Shown here: positions 5,543 to 55,000 of the stretch, piece after piece | Layout of the letters: the number at the start of each line of letters is the position of its first letter | How positions within the stretch are numbered: position 1 is the stretch's first letter | DNA from: Squalus acanthias | Taxonomy: Eukaryota | Reading direction: 5' to 3' | NCBI GenBank assembly: GCA_030390025.1 | Contig: JASTWF010000325.1 | Span: 434,001 to 498,000 of the forward strand | DNA: 64,000 nucleotides | The notes under the pieces: generated by a model | The model's input: only the letters and a program-made list of their open reading frames with translations | Database searches by the model: none | Told to the model about the DNA's origin: nothing | Program-made: the position numbers and the translations under genes

Positions 5543-5650
5543 AAAACACAAAGGGAAGAACTAAATCACGAACCAGTTTTTGGGTATCGGCACAGCAGGA
5601 AGCGAGCAGAGACTCAGAGCGAGGAGGGATAGGCCCCGGAATGTCAGCTC

Positions 5651-5819
5651 GAATTCCCCGTGCATTCCATTGAGTTGCCCTTTCCTTGGGTCGGTTTCCG
5701 CTTTCAGTTTCCTCTGCTGGGCATCCCAGGGCGCACATCGGAAATCGAGGTCAAGGAGCAAAGGTCAAAAGCAAGCTACAGGTTGGTTCAACTTGGCTGA
5801 TGCACAAAAAAAGTAAACA
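5651..5819. promoter_or_regulatory. Candidate enhancer: cluster of ISRE/IRF-like, NF-kB-like, nuclear-receptor and forkhead motifs
   Basis: GAATTCCCC 5651-5659; GGTTTCCGCTTTCAGTTTCC 5693-5712; AGGTCA 5748-5753 and 5762-5767; GTAAACA 5813-5819. Motif matches only. Confidence 0.3.
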
Positions 5820-5834
5820 GTGGTTAAATACTTA

Positions 5835-5846
5835 GGGGGAAAAATT
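5835..5846 (+). repeat. Harbinger left terminal inverted repeat
   Basis: GGGGGAAAAATT preceded by TTA. Confidence 0.9.
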
Positions 5847-6146
5847 AGCGCCTGGTGCTAATTATCGCCACTGACTGGAAACTTCACTTTTACCGCCCCG
5901 GGAGGTGAGTGGAGCACTAAAGCAGGCGCTGCACACCTGTCTTAAGGCGCAAAGGCCAAGGAGTGAGGCGCTAACTCAGCGCGCGAGCGCAGCGCAGCTG
6001 CTGCCAGTTAGCGAGGGAACACAGACACACTGGCGCCGGACACTTCTTAAAGCGGGGGGGGCCAACTTGCTCCCCAGCCACACCCTGCTCATTGCAGCCT
6101 TGAATCTCGGCCTGGAGAGACCTGTGAATCCATTTTGCTGCCAAGC

Positions 6147-7966
6147 ATGGAGAGGGTGAGAGAACGCGCTCAGCGCTTCACCGAGTGGGCCTTGGATGCT
6201 CTGGTTGGCGCGGTGGAGCGCAGAAGATCTATACTCTTCCCTGAGAGTGGCAGGAGGCCTTTGCCACGCGAGTACAGAAGAGTGTGGAGGGAGGTGGCTC
6301 AGAGCGTCTCCTCCAGGAGCATGGTGCCCAGGACCCATACTCAATGCCGCAAAAAGTTCAACGACCTCACTCGGGTCGTCAGGGTGAGTGGCTTTTTCTC
6401 AATACCTCTCCATCCCTCCATCTCAAACTCACTCTATGGCCAGAGGGTCTTAAAACCCCAATGCACAACACTCATCCAACACCTATGGCCCTTTCATGAA
6501 ACACACACACACATTCCACACTTTGCATACAGTAAGGGCTATTCACCTATGGGAGGCACATCAGGCAAGACCATGGCTTCATACAGTAAGGGCTATTCAC
6601 CTATGGGAGGCACATCAGGCAAGACCATGGCTGTATATTTACTCAGATGCTGCCCTTTTACTTGCAGGCCAAGCTGGCGCATAATAGGAGACAGCAGCAA
6701 CGGACAGGTGGAGGGCGGCCTCAGCTGCAACCCCTCAGCGATCTTGAGGAGCGCGTCCACAGGATTGTGGCAAGCCGGGTGATCGGTCCCGTCGCCACTG
6801 GAGACGCTGACCCCGTTCTGGACAGCAATGGTAAGGTCATCACCTTTTTGTCCTCTGTCCTTCCACTTGTCCCTCACAACACCAGCCTTTGACACTTTCA
6901 ATCCAACTTGCTAACTCGCTGCACTTATTCCTCCCTTACTGCCACCCTGTCCTCACGCTAAAGCCACTCTTGTACCTCCCTGCTTTCAGATGGTGATTCA
7001 CCAGCTGAGGAGACGGGCACTGAAGCTGCCAGTGGGAGTGAAGCTGCAGCCGAGGAGGAAGAGGAAGCCGGAGCATCAGTGCCACCCTCTCCCGAGGAAG
7101 CCCATGCCCACACTGGGAACACGCCTTCCCTGGAGGGGAGCAGGGGGGAAGGGTCTGACGAGGGTGAAGCTCCAGGACCCAGCGGGCTGCAGCAACGCCA
7201 TGGGGGTAGGGAAGAACGGGGGCCTTCTCCCCAGAGGGAGAGTATGCCAGCGACTCCTACTGCAATGGACGCAGAGGAGGAGCGGCTGATCGCAGAAATG
7301 AACACCCAGGCGGTGGGCATGCACACTGAGCTCATGGGTGCAGTGGGAAGGGTGCCCGAATGCATTGAGTCACTGGCAAGGAGTGTGGAGCACTTCGCTG
7401 TAGCACAGGCGGATGCCACACTAACGCTTAGTGCTGCAATTCAGTCACTGACTGCCGTGATCCCATCTCTGACTGCTCTCATGCAGACTCAGATTGAGGC
7501 CACGCGAGCACTGACTGCTGCCAACCTCGATGGTTCGTTCACATGTCCCCGGGGCTCTCACCGCGCCGTAGCAGGCCAGCAATCTGTGCTCCAGCAGATT
7601 GCTCCGGATGCTGAAGTGCTGCCCCGTGGGAGTGCCAGTGTGTCGGGCGAGCAGGGAGTTGCTGTCCTCTCTCACGATGACAGCATTCCTGCTGCCAACA
7701 CTGTCACTTCTCCACTGCACTTGCCACCGCCTGTAGGACAGACTGCTGCCGCCCATGCAGAGTTGGTGCAGTCTGCAGCCGGGCCCTCCAGGCCCAGAAC
7801 TGGTCGAGGCCGTCCTTCAGGGGCATCTGCAGTGTCAGGGTCTGACAATCTGCAGCCTTCCACCAGCCTTGCTGCAGCCACTGAGGTCCCATTACGGAGG
7901 AGCAGTAGGGTTAGAAGGGGGGAAGTGCGCAAGGGAAGGAGATCACCCTCGAAGGGCAAAAAGTAG
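6147..7966 (+). CDS. Harbinger Myb/SANT-like DNA-binding protein (NAIF1/MSANTD-like), exons 6147-6383, 6668-6830, 6990-7966; 458 aa
   Basis: RFTEWALDALVGAVERRRSILF..WREVAQSVS..RTHTQCRKKFNDL trihelix motif, then AKLAHNRRQQQRTGGG; donors GTGAGT (6384) and GTAAGG (6831), acceptors TTGCAG (6667) and TTTCAG (6989); phases 0 and 1 join into one open frame ending TAG 7964-7966; basic C-terminal tail; AATAAA 8144-8149. Confidence 0.88.
6526..6632. repeat. 54-bp tandem duplication in intron 1 of the Myb-like gene
   Basis: CATACAGTAAGGGCTATTCACCTATGGGAGGCACATCAGGCAAGACCATGGCT at 6526 and 6580. Confidence 0.9.
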
Positions 7967-8278
7967 GAGGTGTGACAAAATGCTGGTCATTTTTTTATTA
8001 AAGGCCGAGGTTCGTGGTCCAACTTTTGTCTAGTGTTTTGGACATTATCTCCAGGTTGTGAGAACCAGTTATGTTAATGACTGTTTTTTTGTGTTTATTT
8101 CTATGAGTTTGTCATGAGGAAATGACACACACAGAGTTTGTAAAATAAATAAGTTTTTGTATTCAAAATATACATGTTTGGTGTTTGGAATCATTGGTGC
8201 CTTGGCCGGCTTAGGGGTTGCGTGCTGGGTTCATTGATGTTGTTAGCAATGGCAGAAGCCATTTCCACAGCAGGGGCC

Positions 8279-9385
8279 CTAGAAGCGGCTTGCTATCAGC
8301 CGTTGACGGACGGCCCTTGCAGTTTCACCATTGTGGGCCGCCCTCCCGCCTTGGTGCTGCTGATGATCATCCTCCTCGTCCTCTTCCTCCTCTTCCTCCT
8401 CCTCCTCTGGTGGTGCTCCAAGGCCTGGTGGCATTGGCTGGGTCCTGACGATTGCCATGTTATGCAACATGCAGCACACAACTACGAAGTTGGATACTCG
8501 CTCAGGCAAGTACTGCAGGGCTCCTCCAGAATGGTCGAGACAGCGGAACCGTTGCTTCAGCACGCCGATTGTGCGCTCAATGATGTTCCTGGTAGCTTGA
8601 TGGCTCTCGTTGTACCACAGCTCAGCAGGGGTGTTGGGCGTACGGAGCGGTGTCATCAGCCAGGTGCTCAATGGATACCCCTTGTCCCCGAGAAGCCAAC
8701 CAACTGGCTGATGCGGTGCCTCGAAAAGTTCTGCCACAGTGGTCTGGCGCAGGATGAAAGCATCGTGGCAGCTGCCAGGATAGTGGGCATTGACAGCGAG
8801 TATCAGCTGTCTGTGGTCACAGACCAACTGAACATTCAAGGAATGGAACCCCTTTCTGTTCCGGAATTCCTCGGCATTCTCCTGTGGAGCACGCAAAGCC
8901 ACATGCGTGCAGTCAATGGCGCCCTGCACCATGGGGAAGCCCGCTATCCTCGCAAAGCCCAGAGCGCGGTCACGCTGCTTGTCTGGGGTCATGGGGAAAG
9001 AGATGAACTCTCGTCTCCTTTTAAAGAGGGCATTTGTGACCTGCCGGATGCAGCAATGCACCGCAAACTGGGAGATATTGGATGGTCCCCAGCAGCAGCT
9101 TGAAATGAGCCAGTAGCATAGAAGTTGAGAGCCACTGTGACCTTCACTGCCACCGACAGAGACGTCCTGGACCTCAGTTGAGGCTGCAGATCTGGCTGCA
9201 GCAGGTGGCAGAGCTCAGTGACCACCTCCTTGCTGAATTGCAGCCTTCGCAAACACAGCTCCTCAGACATATGAATGTAGGAGAGCTGTTCACGATATAC
9301 CCATCATTGCCACTCTCTCTCTGCGTCTCTGTGTCCTCCGATTCAGCTGGAGCAGGACGACGCCCCCAATCAGTGCAGCCCCCAT
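8279..9385 (-). pseudogene. Harbinger transposase (HARBI1-like DDE nuclease) with two frameshifts
   Basis: Catalytic motifs GAIDCTHV, LLGDKGYP, RNIIERTIG intact in 8279..9061; upstream LNFYATGSFQ..GD in another frame (shift at ~9081-9085); N-terminus MGAALIGGVVLLQLNRR from ATG 9385 shifts at ~9301 into VYREQLSYIHMSEE; minus-strand AATAAA at 8094-8099. Confidence 0.9.
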
Positions 9386-9885
9386 AGTCTCTTTGCAAGC
9401 AAAGTTATGAAGGACAGCAACCAAAGTACCAGCGAAGTTAGGATCAGTAGGCAAAACTACCTCACAAAGCGTTGACTCAATGCAGAAGTCTCTCTTTCTC
9501 TCTCTCCGAATCTCTCTCTCTCTCTCAGAACGAGTGGTGCAAAAATGTCAACCACAGAAAAAGACAGGAAGAGGCCCCCTTTAAATAGCACCCCCCCCCA
9601 GCCCCACAGCGATTGATAGCGTTCCAGTCTTCCGGTCGTTGGATGCGCCAGGCGGTAAGGCAGGGGGCGCCACTCAATTTCCGCTCCAGGGCGCCACAAG
9701 GGCGTTGCACCATGGAATGACGTCACAATCTGCGCGCGCAGGTGGTCGCGGCGGTAAAGTTTAGTGCCGCCGCACGATGTCTAGTTAAGTTCCCGAGCGG
9801 CGCAAACATCGCTGCGCCCGGGCGTTCGCGGCTTTGCGCCCCATTAGCGCCCTCTTAAGGCGCTAACGGGAGGCGCAACCAACTG

Positions 9886-9897
9886 AATTTTTCCCCC
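9886..9897 (-). repeat. Harbinger right terminal inverted repeat
   Basis: AATTTTTCCCCC followed by TTA. Confidence 0.9.
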
Positions 9898-9946
9898 TTA
9901 GTATTTACGTTCCCCTCGGCTAGCTCTGGGCGCTAGTCACCGCCTG

Positions 9947-11478
9947 GCCAGAGGCACTGTCCTGCCAGAGGCACTGTCTGGTCAGAGGCACTGTCCTGTC
10001 AGAGGCACTGTCCTGTCAGAGGCACTGTCTGGTCAGAGGCACTGTCTGGTCAGAGGCACTGTCCTGTCAGAGGCACTGTCCTGTCAGAGGCACTGTCTGG
10101 TCAGAGGCACTGTCTGGTCAGAGGCACTGTCCTGTCAGAGGCACTGTCCTGTCAGAGGCACTGTCTGGTCAGAGGCACTGTCCTGTCAGAGGCACTGTCT
10201 GGTCAGAGGCACTGTCCTGTCAGAGGCACTGTCTGGTCAGAGGCACTGTCCAGTCAGAGGCACTGTCCTGTCAGAGGCACTGTCTGGTCAGAGGCACTGT
10301 CCTGTCAGAGGCACTGTCTGGTCAGAGGCACTGTCCTGTCAGAGGCACTGTCTGGTCAGAGGCACTGTCCTGTCAGAGGCACTGTCTGGTCAGAGGCACT
10401 GTCTGGTCAGAGGCACTGTCCTGTCAGAGGCACTGTCCTGTCAGAGGCACTGTCTGGTCAGAGGCACTGTCTGGTCAGAGGCACTGTCTGGTCAGAGGCA
10501 CTGTCCTGTCAGAGGCACTGTCTGGTCAGAGGCACTGTCCTGTCAGAGGCACTGTCCTGTCAGAGGCACTGCCCTGTCAGAGGCACTGCCCTGTCAGAGG
10601 CACTGTCCTGTCAGAGGCACTGTCTGGTCAGAGGCACTGCCCTGTCAGAGGCACTGTCTGGTCAGAGGCACTGTCCTGTCAGAGGCACTGTCTGGTCAGA
10701 GGCACTGTCCTGTCAGAGGCACTGTCTGGTCAGAGGCACTGTCTGGTCAGAGGCACTGTCCTGTCAGAGGCACTGTCTGGTCAGAGGCACTGTCCTGTCA
10801 GAGGCACTGTCTGGTCAGAGGCACTGTCTGGTCAGAGGCACTGTCCTGTCAGAGGCACTGTCTGGTCAGAGGCACTGTCTGGTCAGAGGCACTGTCCTGT
10901 CAGAGGCACTGTCTGGTCAGAGGCACTGTCCAGTCAGAGGCACTGTCTGGTCAGAGGCACTGTCCTGTCAGAGGCACTGTCTGGTCAGAGGCACTGTCCA
11001 GTCAGAGGCACTGTCTGGTCAGAGGCACTGTCCAGTCAGAGGCACTGTCTGGTCAGAGGCACTGTCCAGTCAGAGGCACTGTCTGGTCAGAGGCACTGTC
11101 CAGTCAGAGGCACTGTCTGGTCAGAGGCACTGTCCAGTCAGAGGCACTGTCCAGTCAGAGGCACTGTCTGGTCAGAGGCACTGTCCAGTCAGAGGCACTG
11201 TCCAGTCAGAGGCACTGTCTGGTCAGAGGCACTGTCCAGTCAGAGGCACTGTCTGGTCAGAGGCACTGTCCAGTCAGAGGCACTGTCTGGTCAGAGGCAC
11301 TGTCCAGTCAGAGGCACTGTCCAGTCAGAGGCACTGTCCTGTCAGAGGCACTGTCCAGTCAGAGGCACTGTCTGGTCAGAGGCACTGTCCAGTCAGAGGC
11401 ACTGTCCAGTCAGAGGCACTGTCTGGTCAGAGGCACTGTCCAGTCAGAGGCACTGTCTGGTCAGAGGCACTGTCCTGT
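9947..11478. repeat. 17-bp minisatellite GTCAGAGGCACTGTC(CT/TG/CA), ~90 copies
   Basis: Directly visible; the rightmost unit overlaps the last codons and stop of the ETS gene. Confidence 0.97.
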
Positions 11479-11774
11479 GGCTCCACTCCCCAGGAACTCC
11501 AGGACCTGCTGGTTGAACTGGTAGGTCAGTTTGCACTTGACTTTGCAGATCTGCCCGGTGCTGGAGTAGTTCCTCAGCGCCCGCGCCATCTTCTGGTATG
11601 TCATAGTCTTGCGGTTGCCCTTCCTGTGCCCCCACATGGCCGCCAGCTGCTCCTTGTTGTGCGAGGAGAATCGGAAGGTGCCAACGGCCCTGGCCACCCA
11701 CCAGGTGCAGTGCCCCATCCTCGGCTCCTCCAGCATCTCGTACAAGAAGTGGAAGAGCCGCTGCCGGCCTTTAC
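11461..11774 (-). CDS. Spi-C-like last coding exon (ETS DNA-binding domain)
   Basis: [56 protein letters not shown]; the [19 protein letters not shown] signature is the SPIC type; acceptor CCCGACAG at 11775-11776. Confidence 0.95.
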
Positions 11775-14700
11775 CTGTCGGGACCAAGGAGACTCTCTCA
11801 CACGGAGCTAATGATATCTGCAGCCAGTGGGCTAGTCCTATCCCTCCCCTCCCCTCCCCTCTGTGGGTGATTTCCCTGCACATCAAGGTGAGGCATTTCA
11901 GAGCTGGTCAATGTGAGACTATCCAATCATCTATCGATCTCAGTCTTGAAAGCTCCAATTGACCCCCAGCATCCACATCTTTTTGGGACAGAGAGTTACA
12001 GATTTCCATTACCCTTTGCGTGAAGAAGTGATTCCTGATTTCGCCCCTGAATGACCCAGCCCTAATGTTAAGGTTATGCCCCCTTGTTCTGGACTCCCCC
12101 CGCCAGAGGAATTTCTCTCCATCTACCCTATCAAATCCTTCAATCATCTTAAACACCTCAATTGTATCACCCCTTAATCTTCTAAACTCAAGGGAATACA
12201 AGCCTAGTCTATGCAACCTGCCCTCATAATTTAATCATTTAGACCCAGTATCGTTCTGATGAATCTGCGCCGCACCCCCTCCAAGGCCTCTCTCACTCAC
12301 TTATCTGTCTATATTCCTTAGCAACTTCCTGCTCCCATCTACACGACTTACTGTTCCTTCTAACTTAGTGCCATTTTCAAACTTAGACATGCAACTCTCT
12401 CTTCCTTCATTCAATTTTTTAATAAATACGGTGAAAAGCTGAGGCCCTAGTACAGATCCCTGGGGAACACCACTAGTCACCTCCTGCCAATCAGAGCACA
12501 TTCCCTTTATCCCTACTCTCTGTCTCCGACCTTCCAACAAATTCCCAACAAATTCCCAACCCATGTCCCATCAAACACTCCCGGGGCAGGTACAGCACGG
12601 GTTAGATACAGAGTAAAGCTCCCTCTACACTGCCCCATCAAACACTCCCAGGGCAGGTACAGCACGGGTTAGATACAGAGTAAAGCTCCCTCTACACTGT
12701 CCCATCAAACACTCCCAGGGCAGGTACAGCACGGGTTAGATACAGAGTAAAGCTCCCTCTACACTGTCCCATCAAACACTCCCAGGGCAGGTACAGCACG
12801 GGTTAGATACAGAGTAAAGCTCCCTCTACACTGTCCCATCAAACACTCCCAGGGCAGGTACAGCACGGGTTAGATACAGAGTAAAGCTCCCTCTACACTG
12901 TCCCATCAAACACTCCCAGGGCAGGTACAGCACGGGTTAGATACAGAGTAAAGCTCCCTCGACACTGTCCCATCAAACACCCCCAGGGCAGGTACAGCAC
13001 GGGTTAGATACAGAGTAAAGCTCCCTCTACACTGTCCCATCAAACACTCCCAGGGCAGGTACAGCACGGGTTAGATACAGAGTAAAGCTCCCTCTACACT
13101 GTCCCATCAAACACTCCCAGGGCAGGTACAGCACGGGTTAGATACAGAGTAAAGCTCCCTCTACACTGTCCCATCAAACACTCCCAGGGCAGGTACAGCA
13201 CGGGTTAGATACAGAGTAAAGCTCCCCCTACACTGTCCCATCAAACACTCTCAGGGCAGGTACAGCACGGGTTAGATACAGAGTAAAGCTCCCTCTACAC
13301 TGTTCTGTGCACAAACACAGCAGCCACTCGGTGTGAGCTCTGTCCTACAAGCAGCGATGAAATTATTGTCATTTTGTGACAAATCGGGGGAGAGTTTGTT
13401 GCTGTGGGCCTGGCCCACTCGGAGCTGGACTGAGACTGAGACTGAGACCGCTCAACGTATTTCACCTTCAATCCCCTGTCGCTAAGATTGAAGCTGCGAT
13501 AGCTGGAGTTACGAAGACCGAGGATTTGGATTGTTTGTGTGTTTCATCAACCCACGTATCCCGAGGCCCATTGATTGGCTGAACTCCAACTGCGCAACAT
13601 GGCACAGAGCCAACTGGAGAACCCCTCAAACCAATGGAAAGAGTGAAAGGCCCGACAGTGCCAGCATCCCATAATATTTGCACCACATTGTGGGGTGCGG
13701 GGGCGGGCAGCAAGTACCCAGAGGCTGTAGAAAGAGTTGTGGTTGCAGAGTACAGCTCAGTGTCTGTGTGCACAGGAAGGGGTGGCGCTATGATGCCTAC
13801 CATAGTGCAATAGCCAGCCGGTAGGCACTGTGCAGATTTGTCTACTTGGGCCAGGTCCTGGAGAGCAGCTCAGGACTGGAGGACGGATGCCCAGTGGGAG
13901 TCAGTGCCCTCAGGAGGAGGGGAGAAGGACCCTGGCACCGCCCTCACTGGTACTGGCAGGTCCTGTTGCGTTGGTGCTGGGTAGGGCATGTTGGGGGTGG
14001 GTTATGCGCCCTTACCTGTACCACCGGTGCTGCCGACCGGCTTCGCCCTGAGCGAGAGGGTGGGGGCCTCGATGGTGCCGGACAGGGTGGAGCCCAAGTC
14101 CCAGCTCTGCTCCGAGTCCTCGGCCCGGGCAGCTTGCTGTCCACAGACCTGTAAAACAGGAGGAGACCGGCAGTGAGTCCAATGGCACCTGACACGGTAT
14201 CATCGCCCACTGCAACCTTCCCAGAACAGCCTTGGACCCCACCCCTCCCCCCACCACACCCCTCCCCCACCCCACCCCAACCCCTCCCCCACCCCACCCC
14301 AACCCCTCCCCCACCCCACCCCTCCCCCCACCACACCCCTCCCCCACCCCGCCCCAACCCCTCCCCCACCCCACCCCAACCCCAACCCCACCCCCACCAC
14401 ACCCCTCCCCCACCCCCACCACACCCCTCCCCCACCACACCACAACCCCTCCCCCACCACACCCCAACCCCTCCCCCACCCCTCCCCCACCCCCACCACA
14501 CACCTCCCCCACCCCACCCCACCCCCTCACCCACCCCCACCCCTCCCCTCCCCCACCCCAACCCCTCACCCACCCCCACCCCACCCCAACCCCTCCCCCA
14601 CCCCACCCCAACCCCTCCCCCACCCCTCCCCCCACCACACCCCTCCCCCACCCCACTCCAACCCCTCCCCCACCCCACCCCAACCCCTCCCCCACCCCAC

Positions 14701-38800: not shown

Positions 38801-39760
38801 TGAGACACAATGTGAATGGGACACAGTGAGAATGAGACACAGTGTGAATGAGACACAGTGTGAATGAGACACAATGTGAATGAGACACAATGTGAATGGG
38901 ACACAGTGAGAATGAGACACAGTGTGAATGGGACACAATGTGAATGGGACACAATGTGAATGAGACACAGTGTGAATGAGACACAGTGTGAATGGGACAC
39001 AGTGTGAATGAGACACAGTGTGAATGAGACACAATGTGAATGGGACACAGTGTGAATGAGACAAAGTGTGAATGAGACACAGTGTGAATGGGACACGGTG
39101 AGAATGAGACACAATGTGAATGGGACACAATGTGAATGAGACAAAATGTGAATGGGACACAGTGTGAATGAGACACAGTGTGAATGAGACACAGTGTGAA
39201 TGAGACACAGTGTGAATGGGACACAATGTGAATGAGACACAATGTGAATGGGACACAGTGAGAATGAGACACAATGTGAATGGGACACAATGTGAATGAG
39301 ACACAATGTGAATGAGACACAGTGTGAATGAGACACAGTGTGAATGAGACACAATGTGAATGGGACACAATGTGAATGGGACACAGTGAGAATGAGACAC
39401 AGTGTGAATGGGACACAATGTGAATGGGACACAATGTGAATGAGACACAGTGTGAATGAGACACAGTGTGAATGGGACACAGTGTGAATGAGACACAGTG
39501 TGAATGGGACACAGTGTGAATGGGACACAGTGTGAATGGGACACAGTGTGAATGAGACACAGTGTGAATGGGACACAGTGCGAATGAGACACAGTGTGAA
39601 TGAGACACAGTGTGAATGGGACACAGTGAGAATGAGACACAATGTGAATGAGAGACAGTGTGAATGGGACACAGTGTGAATGAGACACAGTGTGAATGAG
39701 ACACAATGTGAATGGGACACAATGTGAATGGGACACAGTGAGAATGAGACACAGTGTGAA
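26812..39760. repeat. 16-bp satellite GTGAATG(A/G)GACACA(G/A)T, block 1
   Basis: ~800 units with recurring variant units forming higher-order structure. Confidence 0.98.
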
Positions 39761-41375
39761 GGAAGACAAAAAAAACCTCCCTGGGATATCGGGAAAAATG
39801 GGGACATTGGCAAAGGAGGAACTGACGCAAATCAATATCTCTAAGGATATGGTGTTAAGGAAGCTAAAGGGATTGAAGGCGGACAAATCCCCAGGGCCTG
39901 ATAACATGCATCCTAGGGTGCTGAAGGAGGTGGCCCTAGAGATAGCGGATGCACTAAGTATGATTTTTCAGAATTCATTAGACTCGGGAACAGTGCCCAT
40001 GGATTGGAGGGTAGCTAACGTTACCCCACTATTCAAAAAGTGGGGTAGGGAAAAAGCAGGTAATTACAGACCTGTAAGCCTTACATCAGTTGTGGGCAAA
40101 ATGCTGGAGTCCATCATTAAGGATGAAATAGCGGAGCACTTAGCAAATGGGGACAGGATAGGACAGAGTCAACATGGATTTACAAAGGGTAAATCGTGCT
40201 TGACTAATCTATTGGAATTTTTTGAGGGAGTAACTGGTAAAATAGATGGGGGAGAGCCAGTAGATGTGGTGTACCTGGACTTCCAAATGGCCTTCGATAA
40301 GGTCCCACATAAAAGATTAGCATGGAAAATTGAAGTTCATGGGATAAAGGGGAAAGTATTGACGTGGATAGAGAACTGGCTGTCAGATAGAAAACAGAGA
40401 GTTGGAATAAACGGCTCATTTTCTGAATGGCAGGCAGTAACAAGTGGGGTACCACAGGGATCTGTCCTGGGTCCCCAGCTGTTCACAATTTACATTAATG
40501 ACCTGGATCAGGGAGTCGGATGCAGCATTTCCAAATTTGCAGACGACACTAAACTAGGAGGGGGGGTGGGCTCAGAGGAGGAGACCAGGAAGCTCCAGAG
40601 CGATTTGGACAGACTGGGTGATTGGGCGGATAAATGGCAGATGCACTATAATGTGGACAAGTGCGAAGTTATCCACCTTGGGTGCAGGAACGGGAGGGCA
40701 AATTATTATTTAAATGGCAATAAATTGGGAGAGGGGGAAGTACAGAGAGACCTGGGTGTTCTTGTACACCAGTCACTGAAGGCGAGCATGCAGGTGCAAC
40801 AGGCGGTCAAGAAGGCAAACGGTATGCTGGCCTTCATAGCAAAAGGGTTGGAATACAGGAACAGGGATACCTTGCTGCAGCTGTACAGGGCACTGGTGAG
40901 ACCACACCTCGAGTACTGTGTACAGTTTTGGTCGCCTCATCTGAGGAAAGATGTTCTTGCCATGGAGGGGGTGCAGCGGCGATTCACCAGGCTGATACCA
41001 GGAATGGCGGGATTGACCTATGAGGAGAGACTATGTAGTTTAGGGATGTACACACTGGAGTTTAGAAGATTGAGAGGGGACCTCATAGAAGTGTATAAAA
41101 TTCTGACAGGTCTAGACAGACTAGATGCAGAAGGAATGTTTCCCTTGGCGGGTGAGAACAGAACTAGAGGACATAATTTAAGGATAAGGGCTAAACCATT
41201 TAGGACAGAAATGAGGGGGAATTTCTTCACTCAGAGGGTGGTGAACCTGTGGAACTCATTGCCACAGAGGGCAGTGTACGCCAGCTCATTAAATATATTT
41301 AAGAGGGAATTAGATATATTTCTACAGGCAAAAGGGGTTAAGGGTTACGGAGAGAAGGCGGGGACGGGATACTGA
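39761..41375 (+). CDS. CR1 ORF2 reverse transcriptase domain (N-terminally truncated, frame intact)
   Basis: [44 protein letters not shown]; stop at 41373-41375. Confidence 0.88.
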
Positions 41376-49078: not shown

Positions 49079-52000
49079 TAAGAACATCAGAACATAAGAA
49101 CATAAGAAATAGGAGCAGGAGTAGGCCAATCGGCCCCTCGAGCCTGCTCCGCCATTCAATAAGATCATGGCTGATCTGATCCTAACCGCCAATCTACTAT
49201 CTATCACAGAACCATCTCCTGCATCTAACAGAATTGCACACACGAAATAGGAGCAGAATCAGGCTACACAGTCCCTGGGCCCGCTCCACTACCCACAGGG
49301 CCATGACCGATCCGAACCTAGACTCATGTCCAAATTCCTGCCCGCTCCCCGTAACCCTTAATGCCCTTTACTTCTAGGAAACTGTCTATTTCTGTTTTAA
49401 ATTTAATTAATGTTGTAGCTTCTACAGCTTTTTGTGGCAGCATATTCCATGGACCTACCACCCTCTGAGTGAAGTAGTTCCTCCTCATCTCAGTTTTGAA
49501 AGAGCAGCCCCTTATTCTAAGACTATGTCCCCTAGTTCTCGTCTCACCCGTCATCGGGAACATCCTCCCCGCATCCACCCGATCCAACCCCTTCACAATC
49601 TTATATGTTTCAATAAGATCGCCTCTCATTCTTCTGAACTCCAATGAGTAGAGTCCCAATCTACCCAACCTCTCCTCATATGACCACCCCCTCATCCCCG
49701 GGATTAACCGAGTGAACCTTTTTTGCACTGCCTCGAGAGCAAGGATGTCTTTCCTTAAGTAAGGACACCAAAACTGTATGCAGTATTCCAGGTGCGGTCT
49801 CACCAATACCTTGTACAACTGAAGCAATACCTCCCTATTTTTATATTCTATCCCCCTAGCAATGAAAGCCAACATTCCATTTGCCTTCTTAATCACTTGC
49901 TGCACCTGCATACTAACCTTTTGAGTTTCGTGCACCAGGACCCCCAGATCCCTTTGCACTTCAGTACTCTCCAGTTTCTTGCCATTAAGATAATAAATTG
50001 CTCTAGGATTTTTCCTGCCAAAGTGCATCACCTCACACTTTCCAGTGTTGTATTCCATCTGCCAAATCTCTGCCCACTTACTTAGCCTGTCTATGTCCCC
50101 TTGCAGGTTTTTTATGTCCTCCTCACTCACTACTTTCCCTCCCATCTTTGTATCATCTGCAAATTTTGATATGTTACACTTGGTCCCTTCCTCCAAATCG
50201 TTAATATAGATTGTGAAGAGTTGGGGACCCAGCACTGACCCCTGTGGAACACCACTAGTTACTGATTGCCAGTCTGAGAATGAACCATTTATCCCAACTC
50301 TTTGCTTTCTGTTAGATAGCCAATCCTCTATCCATGCCAGAATATTACCCCCAATCCCGTGATTTTTTACCTTAAGCAATAATCTTTTGTGTGGCACCTT
50401 GTCAAATGCCTTTTGGAAGTCTAAATACACTACGTCCACTGGTTCCCCTTTATCCACTCTATATGTTACTTCCTCAAAGAACTCCAGCAAATTTGTCAAA
50501 CATGACTTCCCCTTCGTAAAACCATGCTGACTTTGTCCTATTAAATTATGATTATCCAAATGTCCTGTTACTGTTTCCTTAATAATGGACTCCAAAATTT
50601 TACCTACCACAGATGTTAGGCTAACCGGTCTATAGTTACCAGCCTTCTGTCTACTGCCCTTTTTAAATAAGGGTGTTACATTAGCAGTTTTCCAGTCTGC
50701 CGGGACCTTAGCGGAATCCAGGGAGTTTTGAAAAATTATTACCAATGCATCTACAATCCCTACCGTCACTTCCTTCAAGACTCTAGGATGTAAGCCATCA
50801 GGTCCAGGTGATTTATCCGCCTTGAGTCCCATTATTTTACCGAGTACCACTTCCTTAGTGATTTTGATCGTGTTTAGCTCCTCTCCCCCTATAGCCCCCT
50901 GTTTGTCCAGTGTTGGGATATTCTTAGTGTCCTCTACTGTAAAGACTGATACAAAATATTCATTCAGTGTTTTTGCCATCTCCATATTTCCCACCATTAA
51001 TTTCCCGGTCTCATCCTCTAAGGGACCAACATTTACTTTAGCCACCCTTTTTCTTTTTATATAACTATAAAAACTCTTACTATCTGTTTTTATATATTTT
51101 GCTAATTTACTTTCATAATCTATCTTCCCTTTCTTAATCAATCTTTTTGTTATTTTTTGCTGCCTTTTAAAGTTTTCCCAATCCTCTGTCCTCCCACTAG
51201 ATTTCGCTACCTTATATGCCCTTGTTTTTAGTCGAATACTATCCTTAATTTCTTTACTTAGCCACGGATGACTGTCCTTTCTTTTACACCCTTTTCTTTT
51301 CAGTGGAATATATTTTTTTTGGAAGTTGTAAAATAACTCCTTGAATGTACACCACTGATCATGTGTCGTCTTACCCTTTAATCTATTTTCCCAATCCACT
51401 CTACTCAATTCCGCTCGCATACCTTCATAGTCTCCTTTATTCAAGCTTAGCACGCTTGTTTGAGATCCAACCTTCTCACCCTCTAATTGAATATGGAATT
51501 CAACCATGTTATGGTCACTCATTCCAAGGGGATCCTTTACTAGGACATTTTTAATTAATCCTGTCTCGTTACACAGGACCAGATCTAAGGTTGCTTGCCC
51601 CCTGGTCGGTTCAGTTACATACTGCTCAAGAAACCCATCCCTAATACACTCAATGAACTCATCCTCAAGGCAGCCCTGCCCCATTTGATTTGTCCAATTA
51701 ATATGATAGTTAAAATCCCCCATAATTATAGATGTTCCCTTATTACATGCCTCAACTATTTCCTGATTGATACTCCGTCCAATAGAGTTGCAACTGTTCG
51801 GCGGCCTATAGACTACGCCCACTAATGATTTTTTCCCCTTATTATTCCTTATCTCCACCCAAACTGTTTCATTATCATGATTTTTTGACCCAATATCATT
51901 ACTCTGTATTACAGTGATTCCTTCCTTTATTAACATAGCCACCCCACCTCCCCTTCCTTCCTGCCTGTCCTTCCTGATCGTTAAATAACCTGGTATGTTT

Positions 52001-52089
52001 AATTCCCAGGCATTGTCACCCTGCAGCCATGTTTCTGTAATGGCCACAATATCATAACCATATGTAGTTATTTGTGCCATTAACTCGTC
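49079..52089 (-). mobile_element. CR1 LINE with near-complete ORF2, inserted antisense in the satellite
   Basis: ORF2 52089..49324; 3' UTR ending in the HER1/HE1-type tail and (TTCTTATG)n at 49079-49108. Confidence 0.97.
49324..52089 (-). CDS. CR1 ORF2: APE endonuclease + reverse transcriptase (921 aa uninterrupted, extreme N-terminus missing)
   Basis: EN motifs VAITETWL, GGGVA, VYRPPN, MGDFN, LDLV, SDHN; RT motifs [23 protein letters not shown]. Confidence 0.92.
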   Translation of the reverse strand, partial: DELMAQITTYGYDIVAITETWLQGDNAWELNIPGYLTIRKDRQEGRGGGVAMLIKEGITVIQSNDIGSKNHDNETVWVEIRNNKGKKSLVGVVYRPPNSCNSIGRSINQEIVEACNKGTSIIMGDFNYHINWTNQMGQGCLEDEFIECIRDGFLEQYVTEPTRGQATLDLVLCNETGLIKNVLVKDPLGMSDHNMVEFHIQLEGEKVGSQTSVLSLNKGDYEGMRAELSRVDWENRLKGKTTHDQWCTFKELFYNFQKKYIPLKRKGCKRKDSHPWLSKEIKDSIRLKTRAYKVAKSSGRTEDWENFKRQQKITKRLIKKGKIDYESKLAKYIKTDSKSFYSYIKRKRVAKVNVGPLEDETGKLMVGNMEMAKTLNEYFVSVFTVEDTKNIPTLDKQGAIGGEELNTIKITKEVVLGKIMGLKADKSPGPDGLHPRVLKEVTVGIVDALVIIFQNSLDSAKVPADWKTANVTPLFKKGSRQKAGNYRPVSLTSVVGKILESIIKETVTGHLDNHNLIGQSQHGFTKGKSCLTNLLEFFEEVTYRVDKGEPVDVVYLDFQKAFDKVPHKRLLLKVKNHGIGGNILAWIEDWLSNRKQRVGINGSFSDWQSVTSGVPQGSVLGPQLFTIYINDLEEGTKCNISKFADDTKMGGKVVSEEDIKNLQGDIDRLSKWAEIWQMEYNTGKCEVMHFGRKNPRAIYYLNGKKLESTEVQRDLGVLVHETQKVSMQVQQVIKKANGMLAFIARGIEYKNREVLLQLYKVLVRPHLEYCIQFWCPYLRKDILALEAVQKRFTRLIPGMRGWSYEERLGRLGLYSLEFRRMRGDLIETYKIVKGLDRVDAGRMFPMTGETRTRGHSLRIRGCSFKTEMRRNYFTQRVVGPWNMLPQKAVEATTLIKFKTEIDSFLEVKGIKGYGERAGIWT

Positions 52090-55000
52090 GAATGGGACAC
52101 AATGTGAATGAGACACAATGTGAATGGGACACAGTGTGAATGAGACACAGTGTGAATGAGACACAGTATGAATGAGACACATTGTGAATGGGACACAATG
52201 TGAATGAGACACAATGTGAATGGGACACAATGTGAATGAGACACAATGTGAATGGGACACAATGTGAATGAGACACAATGTGAATGGGACACAGTGTGAA
52301 TGAGACACAGTGTGAATGAGACACAGTGTGAATGAGACACAGTGTGAATGGGACACAGTGAGAATGAGACACAATGTGAATGGGACACAATGTGAATGAG
52401 ACACAATGTGAATGAGACACAGTGTGAATGAGACACAGTGTGAATGAGACACAATGTAAATGGGACACAATGTGAATGGGACACAGTGAGAATGAGACAC
52501 AGTGTGAATGGGACACAATGTGAATGGGACACAATGTGAATGAGACACAGTGTGAATGAGACACAGTGTGAATGAGACACAGTGTGAAGGGGACACAATG
52601 TGAATGGGACACAGTGTGAATGGGACACAATGTGAATGAGACACAATGTGAATGGGACACAGTGAGAATGAGACACAGTGTGAATGAGACACAGTTTGAA
52701 TGGGACACAGTGAGAATGAGACACAGTGTGAATGAGACACAATGTGAATGAGACACAGTGTGAATGGGACACAGTGTGAATGAAACACAGTGTGAATGAG
52801 ACACAATGTGAATGGGACACAATGTGAATGGGACACAGTGAGAATGAGACACAGTGTGAATGAGACACAATGTGAATGTGACACCGTGAGAATGAGACAC
52901 AGTGTGAATGAGACACAGTGTGAATGAGACACAATGTGAATGAGACACAATGTGAATGGGACACAGTGAGAATGAGACACAGTGTGAATGAGACACAGTG
53001 TGAATGAGACACAATGTGAATGGGACACATTGTGAATGAGAGACAGTGTGAATGAGACACAATGTGAATGGCACACAGTGTGAATGGGATACAGTGTGAA
53101 TGAGACACAATGTGAATGGGACACAGTGAGAATGAGACACAATGTGAATGGGACACAATGTGAATGAGACACAATGTGAATGGGACACAGTGAGAATGAG
53201 ACACAGTGTGAATGAAACACACTGTGAATGGGACACAGTGAGAATGAGACACAGTGTGAATGAGACACAGTGTGAATGAGACACAGTGTGAATCGGGACA
53301 CAGTGAGAATGAGACACAATGTGAATGGGACACAATGAGAATGAGACACAAGTGAATGAGACCACAGTGTGATGGAGACACAATGTATGGACACAGTGTG
53401 AATGAGGACACAATGTGAATGGGACACAGTGAGAATGAGACACAGTGTGAATGGGACGACAATGTGAATGGAGACACAATGTGAATGAGACACAGTGTGA
53501 ATGAGGACTCAGTGTGAATGGGACACAGTGTGAATGAGACACAGTGTGAATGGGACACAGTGTGAATGGGGACACTGTGAGAATGAGACACAGTGTGAAT
53601 GAGACACAGTGTGAATGAGACACAGTGTGAATGGAGACACAGTGTGAATGGGACACAATGTGAATGTGGACACAGTGAGAATGAGACACAGTGTGAATGA
53701 GACACAGTGTGAATGAGACACAATGTGAATGGGACACAGTGGAGAATGAGACACAGCGTGGAATGAGACACAGTGTGAATGGGACACAGTGAGAATGAGA
53801 CACAATGTGAATGAGACACAGTGTGAATGAGACACAGTGTGAATGAGACACAATGTGAATGGGACACAATGTGAATGGGACACAGTGAGAATGAGACACA
53901 GTGTGAATGTGACACAGTGTGAATGAGGACACAATGTGAATCAGACACAATTGTGAATGGGACACATGAGAATGAGACACACAGTGTGAATGGGAACAAT
54001 GTGAATGGGAAACCAATGTGAATGAGACACAGTAGTGAATGAGCCACAGTGTTGAATGGGACACAGTGTGTATGAGACACGTGTGAATGAGACACAAATG
54101 TGAATGGGACCTGTGTGAATGAGCAAATTGTGAATGAGGCACAGTTTGTGAAGGGGAACAGTGAGGAATGAGACACAATGTGAAAGGGAACACAATGTCG
54201 AAAGAAACAATCGTTGAATGGGGACACAGTGTGAATGAGACACAAGTGTGAATGAGACACGTGTGAATGGAACAGTGTGAATGGACACAATGTGAATGGA
54301 CACAATGTGAATGGGACACAATGTGTTTGAGACACAATGGAATGAGACTCAGTAGTGAATGAGACACAGTTCGGTGAATGAGACACAATGTGAAATGGGA
54401 CACAATGTGAATGGGACACAGTGAGAATGAGACACAGAGTGAATGGGACAAAATGGGAATGAGGACACAATGTGAATGGGACACAATGTGAATGAGACAC
54501 AGTGTGAATGAGACACAGTGTGAATGAGACACAGTGTGAATGGGACACAGTGTGAATGAGACACAGTGTGAATGAGGACACGTGTGAATGAGACACAGTG
54601 TGAATGGGACACAATGTGAAAGAGACACATGTGAATGGGACACAGTGTGAATGAGACACAAGTGTGAATGGGTACAGTGTGAATGAGACACAGTGTGAAT
54701 GAGACACAGTGTGAATGAGACAACAGGGTGATGGGACACATTGTGAATGGACACAATGTGAATGGGACACAATGTGAATGAGACACAGTGTGAATGAGGA
54801 CACAGTGTGAATGTGACACAGTGTGAATCGAGACACAATGTGAATGGGACACAAGTGTGAATGGGACACAGTGAGACTGAGACACAATGTGAATGGGACA
54901 AATGTGTGATGGGACACAGTGTGAATGAGACACAGTGTGAATGAGACACAGTGTGAATGGGACACAGTGTGAATGAGGACACAGTGTGAATGGGACACAG

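What the first reader, a model, noticed from the sequence alone, without database searches (positions are those of the whole stretch)
5825..9907. Complete Harbinger transposon sitting in a 17-bp palindromic target (TAAATAC-TTA-GTATTTA)
Seen: removing 5835-9897 and one TTA restores TAAATAC|TTA|GTATTTA, with perfectly complementary 7-bp arms around the 3-bp duplication. Known: zebrafish Harbinger3_DR has a long, roughly palindromic target preference, unusual among cut-and-paste transposons. Inference: this is a shark-type Harbinger family with its own long target specificity, i.e. a possible two-component site-selective integration system.
Basis: partly seen in the sequence, partly recalled or inferred. 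Interest (0 to 1): 0.72.

Follow-up and report, generated by a model that had tools for sequence, protein, structure and literature searches.

The report
Shark Harbinger in zebrafish-like palindromic target
A young but broken copy of a very abundant shark "jumping gene" sits in a palindromic landing site that nearly matches the one already known for a zebrafish relative, so it is a new example of a known habit, not a new targeting system.

Summary
A 4,063-bp Harbinger (5835-9897) has 12-bp TIRs, a TTA duplication and perfect 7-bp flanking arms (chance about 6e-5). Its Myb-like gene reads open (458 aa, predicted introns), but the DDE transposase has two frameshifts, so this copy is whole in outline yet not autonomous.

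The specificity is not the family's "own". The arms AAATAC/GTATTT match the published zebrafish Harbinger3_DR target AAACAC-CWG-GTCTTT at 10 of 12 positions (p about 4e-5); only the duplicated triplet differs (TTA versus CWG). An extended palindromic preference is described for all characterised PIF/Harbingers.

The family is very high-copy, while the exact 17-mer should occur under once per Gb. So this is a degenerate preference, not site-specific integration. Flanks of other copies could not be read: no genome was held and the read output was truncated. The family-wide logo is therefore untested.

The scan earlier noted a related flank motif elsewhere in this genome (e1-7807215; unchecked AI note).

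Verdict: new member of a known kind; modest interest.

The parts
5825..5831 (.). Left arm of the target palindrome (TAAATAC); its inner 6 bp match the Harbinger3_DR left arm AAACAC at 5 of 6
5832..5834 (.). [quoted passage not shown]
5835..9897 (.). Harbinger DNA transposon, 4,063 bp, member of a very high-copy family; no second copy in the window
5835..5846 (+). Left terminal inverted repeat, 12 bp, GGGGGAAAAATT
5845..5974 (.). Left subterminal region with repeated TT(A/T)(N)CGCC motifs in both orientations (5845, 5862, 5890 on +; 5953, 5974 on -); candidate Myb-like binding sites (inference). Two other samples diverge from the window right after 5848
6147..6383 (+). Myb/SANT-like gene, predicted exon 1 (Myb_DNA-bind_5, E 3e-10)
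6526..6633 (.). 54-bp tandem duplication inside predicted intron 1
6668..6830 (+). Myb-like gene, predicted exon 2 (canonical GT-AG signals; splicing not shown)
6990..7966 (+). Myb-like gene, predicted exon 3; the three-exon model reads open for 458 aa plus stop
8279..9385 (-). DDE_Tnp_4 transposase gene (E 6e-39), convergent with the Myb-like gene; broken by frameshifts near 9083-9085 and 9305-9340; catalytic D, D, E codons at 8912-8914, 8684-8686 and 8576-8578 are intact
9651..9866 (.). Right subterminal region with the same TT(A/T)(N)CGCC motifs (9833, 9844 on +; 9658, 9757, 9806, 9866 on -)
9886..9897 (-). Right terminal inverted repeat, 12 bp
9898..9900 (.). Right copy of the TSD, TTA
9901..9907 (.). 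Right arm of the target palindrome (GTATTTA); its inner 6 bp match the Harbinger3_DR right arm GTCTTT at 5 of 6

Best explanation
This is a young, now non-autonomous copy of a very abundant shark Harbinger family related to zebrafish Harbinger3_DR (the Nuwa branch of PHIS in Han et al. 2015). It inserted by ordinary two-protein cut-and-paste transposition into a site that closely fits an extended, degenerate, palindromic preference of about 15 bp, AAANAC-(3-bp TSD)-GTNTTT. Mechanism, step by step. (1) The Myb-like protein binds the element ends, partners the transposase and helps its nuclear import (shown for Harbinger3_DR in the literature; inferred here, with the subterminal CGCC repeats as candidate sites). 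(2) The DDE transposase excises the element and makes a 3-nt staggered cut in the target, giving the TTA duplication (duplication shown by the sequence; chemistry from family knowledge). (3) A two-fold symmetric complex reads the same half-site on each side of the cut, so preferred targets are palindromic (inference). The half-site looks shared with the zebrafish element while the central triplet differs (TTA here, CWG there). It is a preference, not a fixed address; this copy happens to sit in a near-ideal site.
For: Perfect 7-bp arms, p about 6e-5; 0 of 1,038 control TNA sites have arms of 6 bp or more. The arms match the independently published consensus AAACACCWGGTCTTT (PMC3016246, passage seen) at 10 of 12 positions, p about 4e-5. 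That includes all ten positions at which the zebrafish consensus is self-complementary, p about 1.2e-6; 0 of 1,038 control sites reach 10 of 12. Extended preference is described for all characterised PIF/Harbingers and is kept in heterologous hosts, so it is element-encoded (PMC2836001). The architecture equals Harbinger3_DR's row in Han et al. Table S5: 12-bp TIR, about 4.2 kb, DDE_Tnp_4 plus Myb_DNA-bind_5. The copy is young, about 1% from the closest contigs of low-coverage runs, so its flanks should be little eroded. The left flank next to the site is single-copy by depth (bin 5564-5720: 24.9 and 5.9, against 2.5e5-2.1e6 inside the element), so the palindrome is not part of a repeat on that side.
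Against: n = 1 site. No other flank of this family was read: no genome was held; the read-laying output cut 1,741 loose ends and showed none at the TIRs; the metagenome pattern scan gave 0 hits. The site was selected by a reader looking for palindromes in a genome with many copies, which inflates the odds. Distant relatives in metagenomes do not show the full arm: 0 of 3 left junctions of a 38%-identity CAG-TSD family have A at -4, and L046 fits on the right (ATCTTT) but not on the left. The TSD is TTA, not the CWG of Harbinger3_DR. No empty site was seen in other samples.
Confidence: 0.72

Rival explanations
1. The family has only a short core preference (C|TNA|G as in NuwaII, or A-N-N-Y[TSD]R-N-N-T). 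The outer AAA/TTT matches and the perfect 7-bp palindrome are the lucky tail among many copies.
For: C|TTA|G is exactly the NuwaII target (PMC4482050). An earlier, unchecked note from this genome reports only the A-N-N-Y/R-N-N-T core across families (e1-7807215). The family is very abundant, and the finding was selected for its palindrome.
Against: Given that core, the remaining matches to the zebrafish arms still have a probability of order 1e-4 per site (my arithmetic from the composition), and they match a motif published independently.
Confidence: 0.16
2. Pure chance: the family needs only TWA and the flanks are random.
For: Most PIF/Harbinger families are listed with just a TWA TSD. Only one site is known here.
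Against: p about 6e-5 for the palindrome and about 1e-6 for the ten-position match to the known consensus. Extended preferences are typical of characterised members.
Confidence: 0.05
3. TAAATACTTA belongs to the element, giving a 22-bp TIR with a different outer duplication.
For: The repeat finder reports one 22-nt inverted pair at 95%. PHIS TIRs of 13-46 bp are common.
Against: The central TTA is a direct repeat, which causes the single mismatch in the 22-mer. There is no outer duplication (GGT on the left, CGT on the right). The TIR would start with TA, not the GG/GGG typical of Nuwa elements. The single-copy left-flank contigs of two samples reach 21 and 24 bases past 5834, slightly further than a 22-bp TIR shared by all copies would allow at k = 31; this is weak, because a private variant could also extend them.
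Confidence: 0.04
4. One reading: a family-specific, strictly site-selective 17-bp integration system.
For: The perfect 17-bp palindrome; the outermost T/A pair extends one base beyond the zebrafish 15-mer.
Against: The exact 17-mer is expected 0.1-0.6 times per Gb, and even AAANAC-TWA-GTNTTT only 30-93 times per Gb. Yet 36,572 and 44,481 contigs of two runs map to the stretch, with summed depth four to five orders above the flank (depth is not a copy number). The arms are shared with zebrafish rather than family-specific.
Confidence: 0.03

Closest known systems
Harbinger3_DR of zebrafish (= NuwaI-2_DRer in Han et al. 2015; reconstructed by Sinzelle et al. 2008, seen only as cited in PMC3016246 and PMC2836001)
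   Same: 12-bp TIR, about 4.1-4.2 kb, DDE_Tnp_4 transposase plus Myb_DNA-bind_5 protein; palindromic target arms identical at 10 of 12 positions.
   Different: TSD is TTA, not CWG. The host is a shark-like genome. The predicted Myb-like protein is longer (458 aa against 221 aa). This copy's transposase is frameshifted. Sequence relatedness to Harbinger3_DR itself was not measured (no reference sequence available through the tools).
NuwaII group of the PHIS superfamily (PMC4482050)
   Same: Target core C|TNA|G; two ORFs (DDE plus Myb/SANT); TIR starting with GG.
   Different: The NuwaII rows seen (26 families shown, of 30) carry Myb_DNA-bind_4/3, Myb/SANT-like or NAM-associated domains, none Myb_DNA-bind_5. 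Their TIRs are 13-46 bp (12 here). No cartilaginous fish is listed.
Plant PIF and Ping/Pong/mPing
   Same: Two-protein transposition, TTA/TAA duplication, and an extended preference around the TSD (9 bp).
   Different: Shorter motif and plant hosts; protein similarity not measured here.
Shark and ray 'putative nuclease HARBI1' proteins (e.g. Pristiophorus japonicus P0001, Narcine, Heptranchias, Mobula, Carcharodon)
   Same: Closest proteins to this transposase, 66% identity at best; 468 hits of 760 candidates at E <= 1e-30.
   Different: Annotated only as proteins; no element ends or targets are attached. Many lack the catalytic E.

Membership tests
PIF/Harbinger (PHIS superfamily) | DDE transposase of the DDE_Tnp_4 type with a D-D-E triad | tested here: met
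   PF13359 E 5.9e-39; D, D, E present; gene frameshifted in this copy
PIF/Harbinger (PHIS superfamily) | Second ORF with a Myb/SANT-like domain | tested here: met
   PF13873 E 3.3e-10; open three-exon model
PIF/Harbinger (PHIS superfamily) | TIRs and a 3-bp TWA target-site duplication | tested here: met
   12-bp TIR and TTA on both sides; not confirmed by an empty site
PIF/Harbinger (PHIS superfamily) | Extended target preference across copies | tested here: inconclusive
   One site fits strongly; other flanks could not be read
PIF/Harbinger (PHIS superfamily) | Transposition needs both proteins | not testable with these tools
   Needs a cell assay
NuwaI (Harbinger3_DR group) | CWG target-site duplication | tested here: not met
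   TSD is TTA; definition. It works like NuwaI but is not filed as NuwaI
NuwaI (Harbinger3_DR group) | TIR 12-61 bp starting GGG; DDE plus Myb/SANT ORFs | tested here: met
   8 of the 10 Myb_DNA-bind_5 rows in the paper's supplement 1 are NuwaI
NuwaII | Target C|TNA|G | tested here: inconclusive
   Met at this single site (C|TTA|G); not tested across copies
Nuwa clade (NuwaI plus NuwaII) | Transposase falls in the Nuwa clade of a DDE-domain tree | not tested
   No labelled reference sequences were available through the tools

The most novel reading that the evidence does not exclude
The Harbinger target is modular. The half-site AAANAC/GTNTTT has been conserved between a zebrafish element and a shark family, while the duplicated central triplet switched from CWG to TWA. 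This shark family would bridge NuwaI (arms, Myb type) and NuwaII (C|TNA|G core). As a young, very abundant family in a lineage where Harbingers were reported absent from the one species examined (elephant shark), it would offer thousands of natural insertion sites to map which of the two proteins reads the arms and which sets the centre.
Probability: 0.4. Interest if true: 0.45.

Novelty: new member of a known kind. Interest (0 to 1): 0.27.

Why it matters
Which of the two Harbinger proteins reads the extended target was left open in PMC2836001 (section 11), and I found no solved structure related to the transposase. A second vertebrate family with the same arms but a different central triplet gives a natural contrast for swap experiments. 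It also shows Harbingers abundant in sharks, which PMC9179366 left to be tested after finding none in elephant shark. It is not a new targeting principle, and the preference is too loose for single-site integration.

Tried and rejected
- Whole-genome copy collection: no genome is held for this window.
- Other copies in the window: none (blastn). A TIR+TSD scan gave 4 pairs, of which only this one is credible.
- Reads: 20 of 24 listed runs hold part of the stretch; 4 of them were laid. The output showed no loose ends at the TIRs (24 shown, 1,741 cut) and no empty-site joint among the 15 joints shown (51 cut), so neither is evidence of absence.
- Right-end pattern in metagenome contigs: 0 hits.
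- Related loci: 80 of 128 candidates in metagenomes, all distant (29-56% identity); 0 of 41 in viral contigs; 0 of 25 in prokaryote genomes.
- Element ends in those loci: I screened 38 and then 36 of the 80 loci (the longer ones). The stricter screen gave 2 with TIR plus TSD (L031, AAT; L046, CTG). One further CAG-TSD family (L003/L004/L008 left ends, L005 right end) came from flank comparison. These are too few and too distant to test the motif, and they do not show the AAA arm consistently.
- Solved structures: no PDB relative of the transposase (one chance hit, E 0.17).
- Myb-like homologue search: 1 hit among 245 candidates.
- The primary Harbinger3_DR paper (Sinzelle 2008) was not held; Kapitonov and Jurka 2004 was not seen. 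Repbase and Dfam could not be searched, so the family may already be named there.
- Rejected: a 22-bp TIR; a palindrome belonging to a repeat on the left side (single-copy depth); a strict 17-bp site.
- No structure or complex prediction was run, as it would not test the target claim.

Full report
Observation. The sequence is as described: TAAATAC TTA, a 4,063-bp element at 5835-9897, then TTA GTATTTA. The 12-bp TIR occurs only at these two places in the window (2 matches, 0.07 expected). The flanking arms pair perfectly for 7 bp and no further. The chance of this is 6.2e-5 per site, and none of 1,038 TNA sites in the non-satellite parts of the window has arms of 6 bp or more.

Anatomy. Two convergent genes lie inside. 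On the + strand a Myb/SANT-like gene (Myb_DNA-bind_5, E 3e-10) reads open for 458 aa in a three-exon model with canonical splice signals (splicing not shown). On the - strand a DDE_Tnp_4 transposase (E 6e-39) keeps its D, D and E residues, but the alignment to its best homologue changes frame twice, near 9083-9085 and near 9305-9340. Contigs of all four runs laid carry an extra base at 9081-9084, so that break is not shared by the whole family. Both subterminal regions carry repeated TT(A/T)(N)CGCC motifs, candidate binding sites for the Myb-like protein (inference).

Abundance and age. Twenty of 24 listed runs hold part of the stretch. In the two best, 36,572 and 44,481 contigs map to it. Summed depth is 2.5e5-2.1e6 inside the element against 25 and 6 in the adjacent left flank. 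The tool warns that depth is no copy number, but the contrast shows a very abundant family. The closest long contigs of two low-coverage runs differ from this copy by about 1% (18 of 1,690 and 10 of 1,235 letters). Those figures use 4 of 8 and 5 of 8 listed rows, chosen as the closest; all 8 rows give about 2.8% and 2.1% by my own arithmetic. Left-flank contigs of two samples, which differ from the window at 4 and 3 of 599 letters, continue 14 bp into the element, so the insertion is present there too. Both then differ from the window for their last 10 and 7 letters. The window's left end aligns to its right end with a 21-bp gap just inside the TIR, so a small deletion in this copy is plausible but unproven.

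The target. The published Harbinger3_DR target is the 15-bp AAACACCWGGTCTTT (PMC3016246, passage). The window's arms AAATAC and GTATTT match it at 10 of 12 positions (p about 4e-5). The two mismatches fall on the one pair at which the zebrafish consensus is itself not self-complementary; the ten-position match has p about 1.2e-6, and 0 of 1,038 control sites reach 10 of 12. The central triplet differs: TTA here, CWG there. PMC2836001 (passages and section 11) calls an extended preference, 9 bp in plants and 15 bp in vertebrates, a feature of all characterised PIF/Harbingers, encoded by one or both element proteins. In the scheme of PMC4482050 (passages, part 2 of section 4, and searches of supplement 1), Harbinger3_DR is NuwaI (CWG, 12-bp TIR, Myb_DNA-bind_5) and NuwaII targets C|TNA|G. 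This element has NuwaI-like architecture and arms with a NuwaII-like core. It fails the NuwaI TSD test, and its tree position was not tested.

Limits and contrary results. Everything about the target rests on one site, chosen by a reader because it was palindromic. No genome was held. The read output showed no loose ends at the TIRs and no empty site among the rows printed. A pattern scan of metagenomes found nothing. Distant relatives do not consistently show the arm: 0 of 3 left junctions of a 38%-identity CAG family have A at -4, though all 3 have a pyrimidine at -1 and its one right junction reads GTTTGT; L046 fits only on the right. A strict site is excluded by arithmetic: the exact 17-mer is expected 0.1-0.6 times per Gb and the 15-bp pattern 30-93 times per Gb, far fewer than the family's apparent abundance.

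Mechanism. Shown: the two genes, the TIRs, the TTA duplication and one near-ideal palindromic site. From the literature on Harbinger3_DR (as cited): the Myb-like protein binds the ends and the transposase and helps nuclear import, and both proteins are needed. Inferred: a two-fold symmetric complex reads one half-site on each side of a 3-nt staggered cut, which yields a palindromic, degenerate preference. This copy can at most supply the Myb-like protein and be moved in trans. I put 0.72 on an extended Harbinger3_DR-type preference, 0.16 on a short core plus luck, 0.05 on pure chance, 0.04 on a 22-bp TIR and 0.03 on a strict family-specific site.

Novelty. Eight paper searches gave no description of a shark Harbinger target in the listings I saw. 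The library lacks most subscription papers, Sinzelle 2008 was not held, and Repbase and Dfam were not searchable. PMC9179366 (passages) found no Harbingers in elephant shark and asked for other cartilaginous fishes to be tested. PMC8437027 and bioRxiv 10.64898/2026.05.26.728016 (passages only) added nothing on extended targets; supplements of the preprint and supplements 2-3 of PMC4482050 were not seen. Earlier unchecked notes of this scan from the same genome report a shared A-N-N-Y[TSD]R-N-N-T motif and motif-driven hot spots. This site fits that core, but I could not test their claim on other copies. The finding is a new member of a known kind. What remains of interest is the possible conservation of the arms with a changed centre.

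Noticed in passing
window 11464-11790 (-): ETS-domain exon (Pfam Ets, E 2.8e-23), which by recalled resemblance looks SPI1/PU.1-like. Its reading frame ends just inside the 17-bp tandem array. The Harbinger lies about 1.6 kb downstream of this stop, beyond the array.
   Followed up: partly
window 9944-11475: Tandem array of a 17-bp unit about 1.5 kb long, starting 46 bp from the element's right end; its unit is unrelated to the 17-bp target.
   Followed up: no
window 26756-64000: 37-kb satellite with a 16-bp unit (about 2,316 copies), almost free of CpG, interrupted by reverse-transcriptase ORFs at 39696-41375 (+; RVT_1 E 2e-29) and in the 49324-53508 (-) frame; both look CR1-like by recalled resemblance.
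   Followed up: no
window 5849 onward: Contigs of two other samples match the window up to 5848 and then differ for their last 7-10 letters, so the left end of this copy may carry a haplotype-specific change or deletion.
   Followed up: partly
window 5835-9897 in runs X1/X2: Joints such as 5921 to 9559 and higher depth at the ends point to internally deleted, MITE-like derivatives of the family.
   Followed up: no
window 12564-13303: Eleven copies of a 67-bp unit at 98% identity.
   Followed up: no
L003:1239, L004:852, L008:1824, L005:6636: A distant (38% identity) CAG-TSD Harbinger family of about 7 kb with independent insertion sites in host-associated metagenomes; pyrimidine at -1 in 3 of 3 left junctions.
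   Followed up: partly
alignment A1: Many shark and ray 'HARBI1-like' proteins lack the catalytic glutamate (K, R, H or Q in its place), suggesting decayed or domesticated copies.
   Followed up: no
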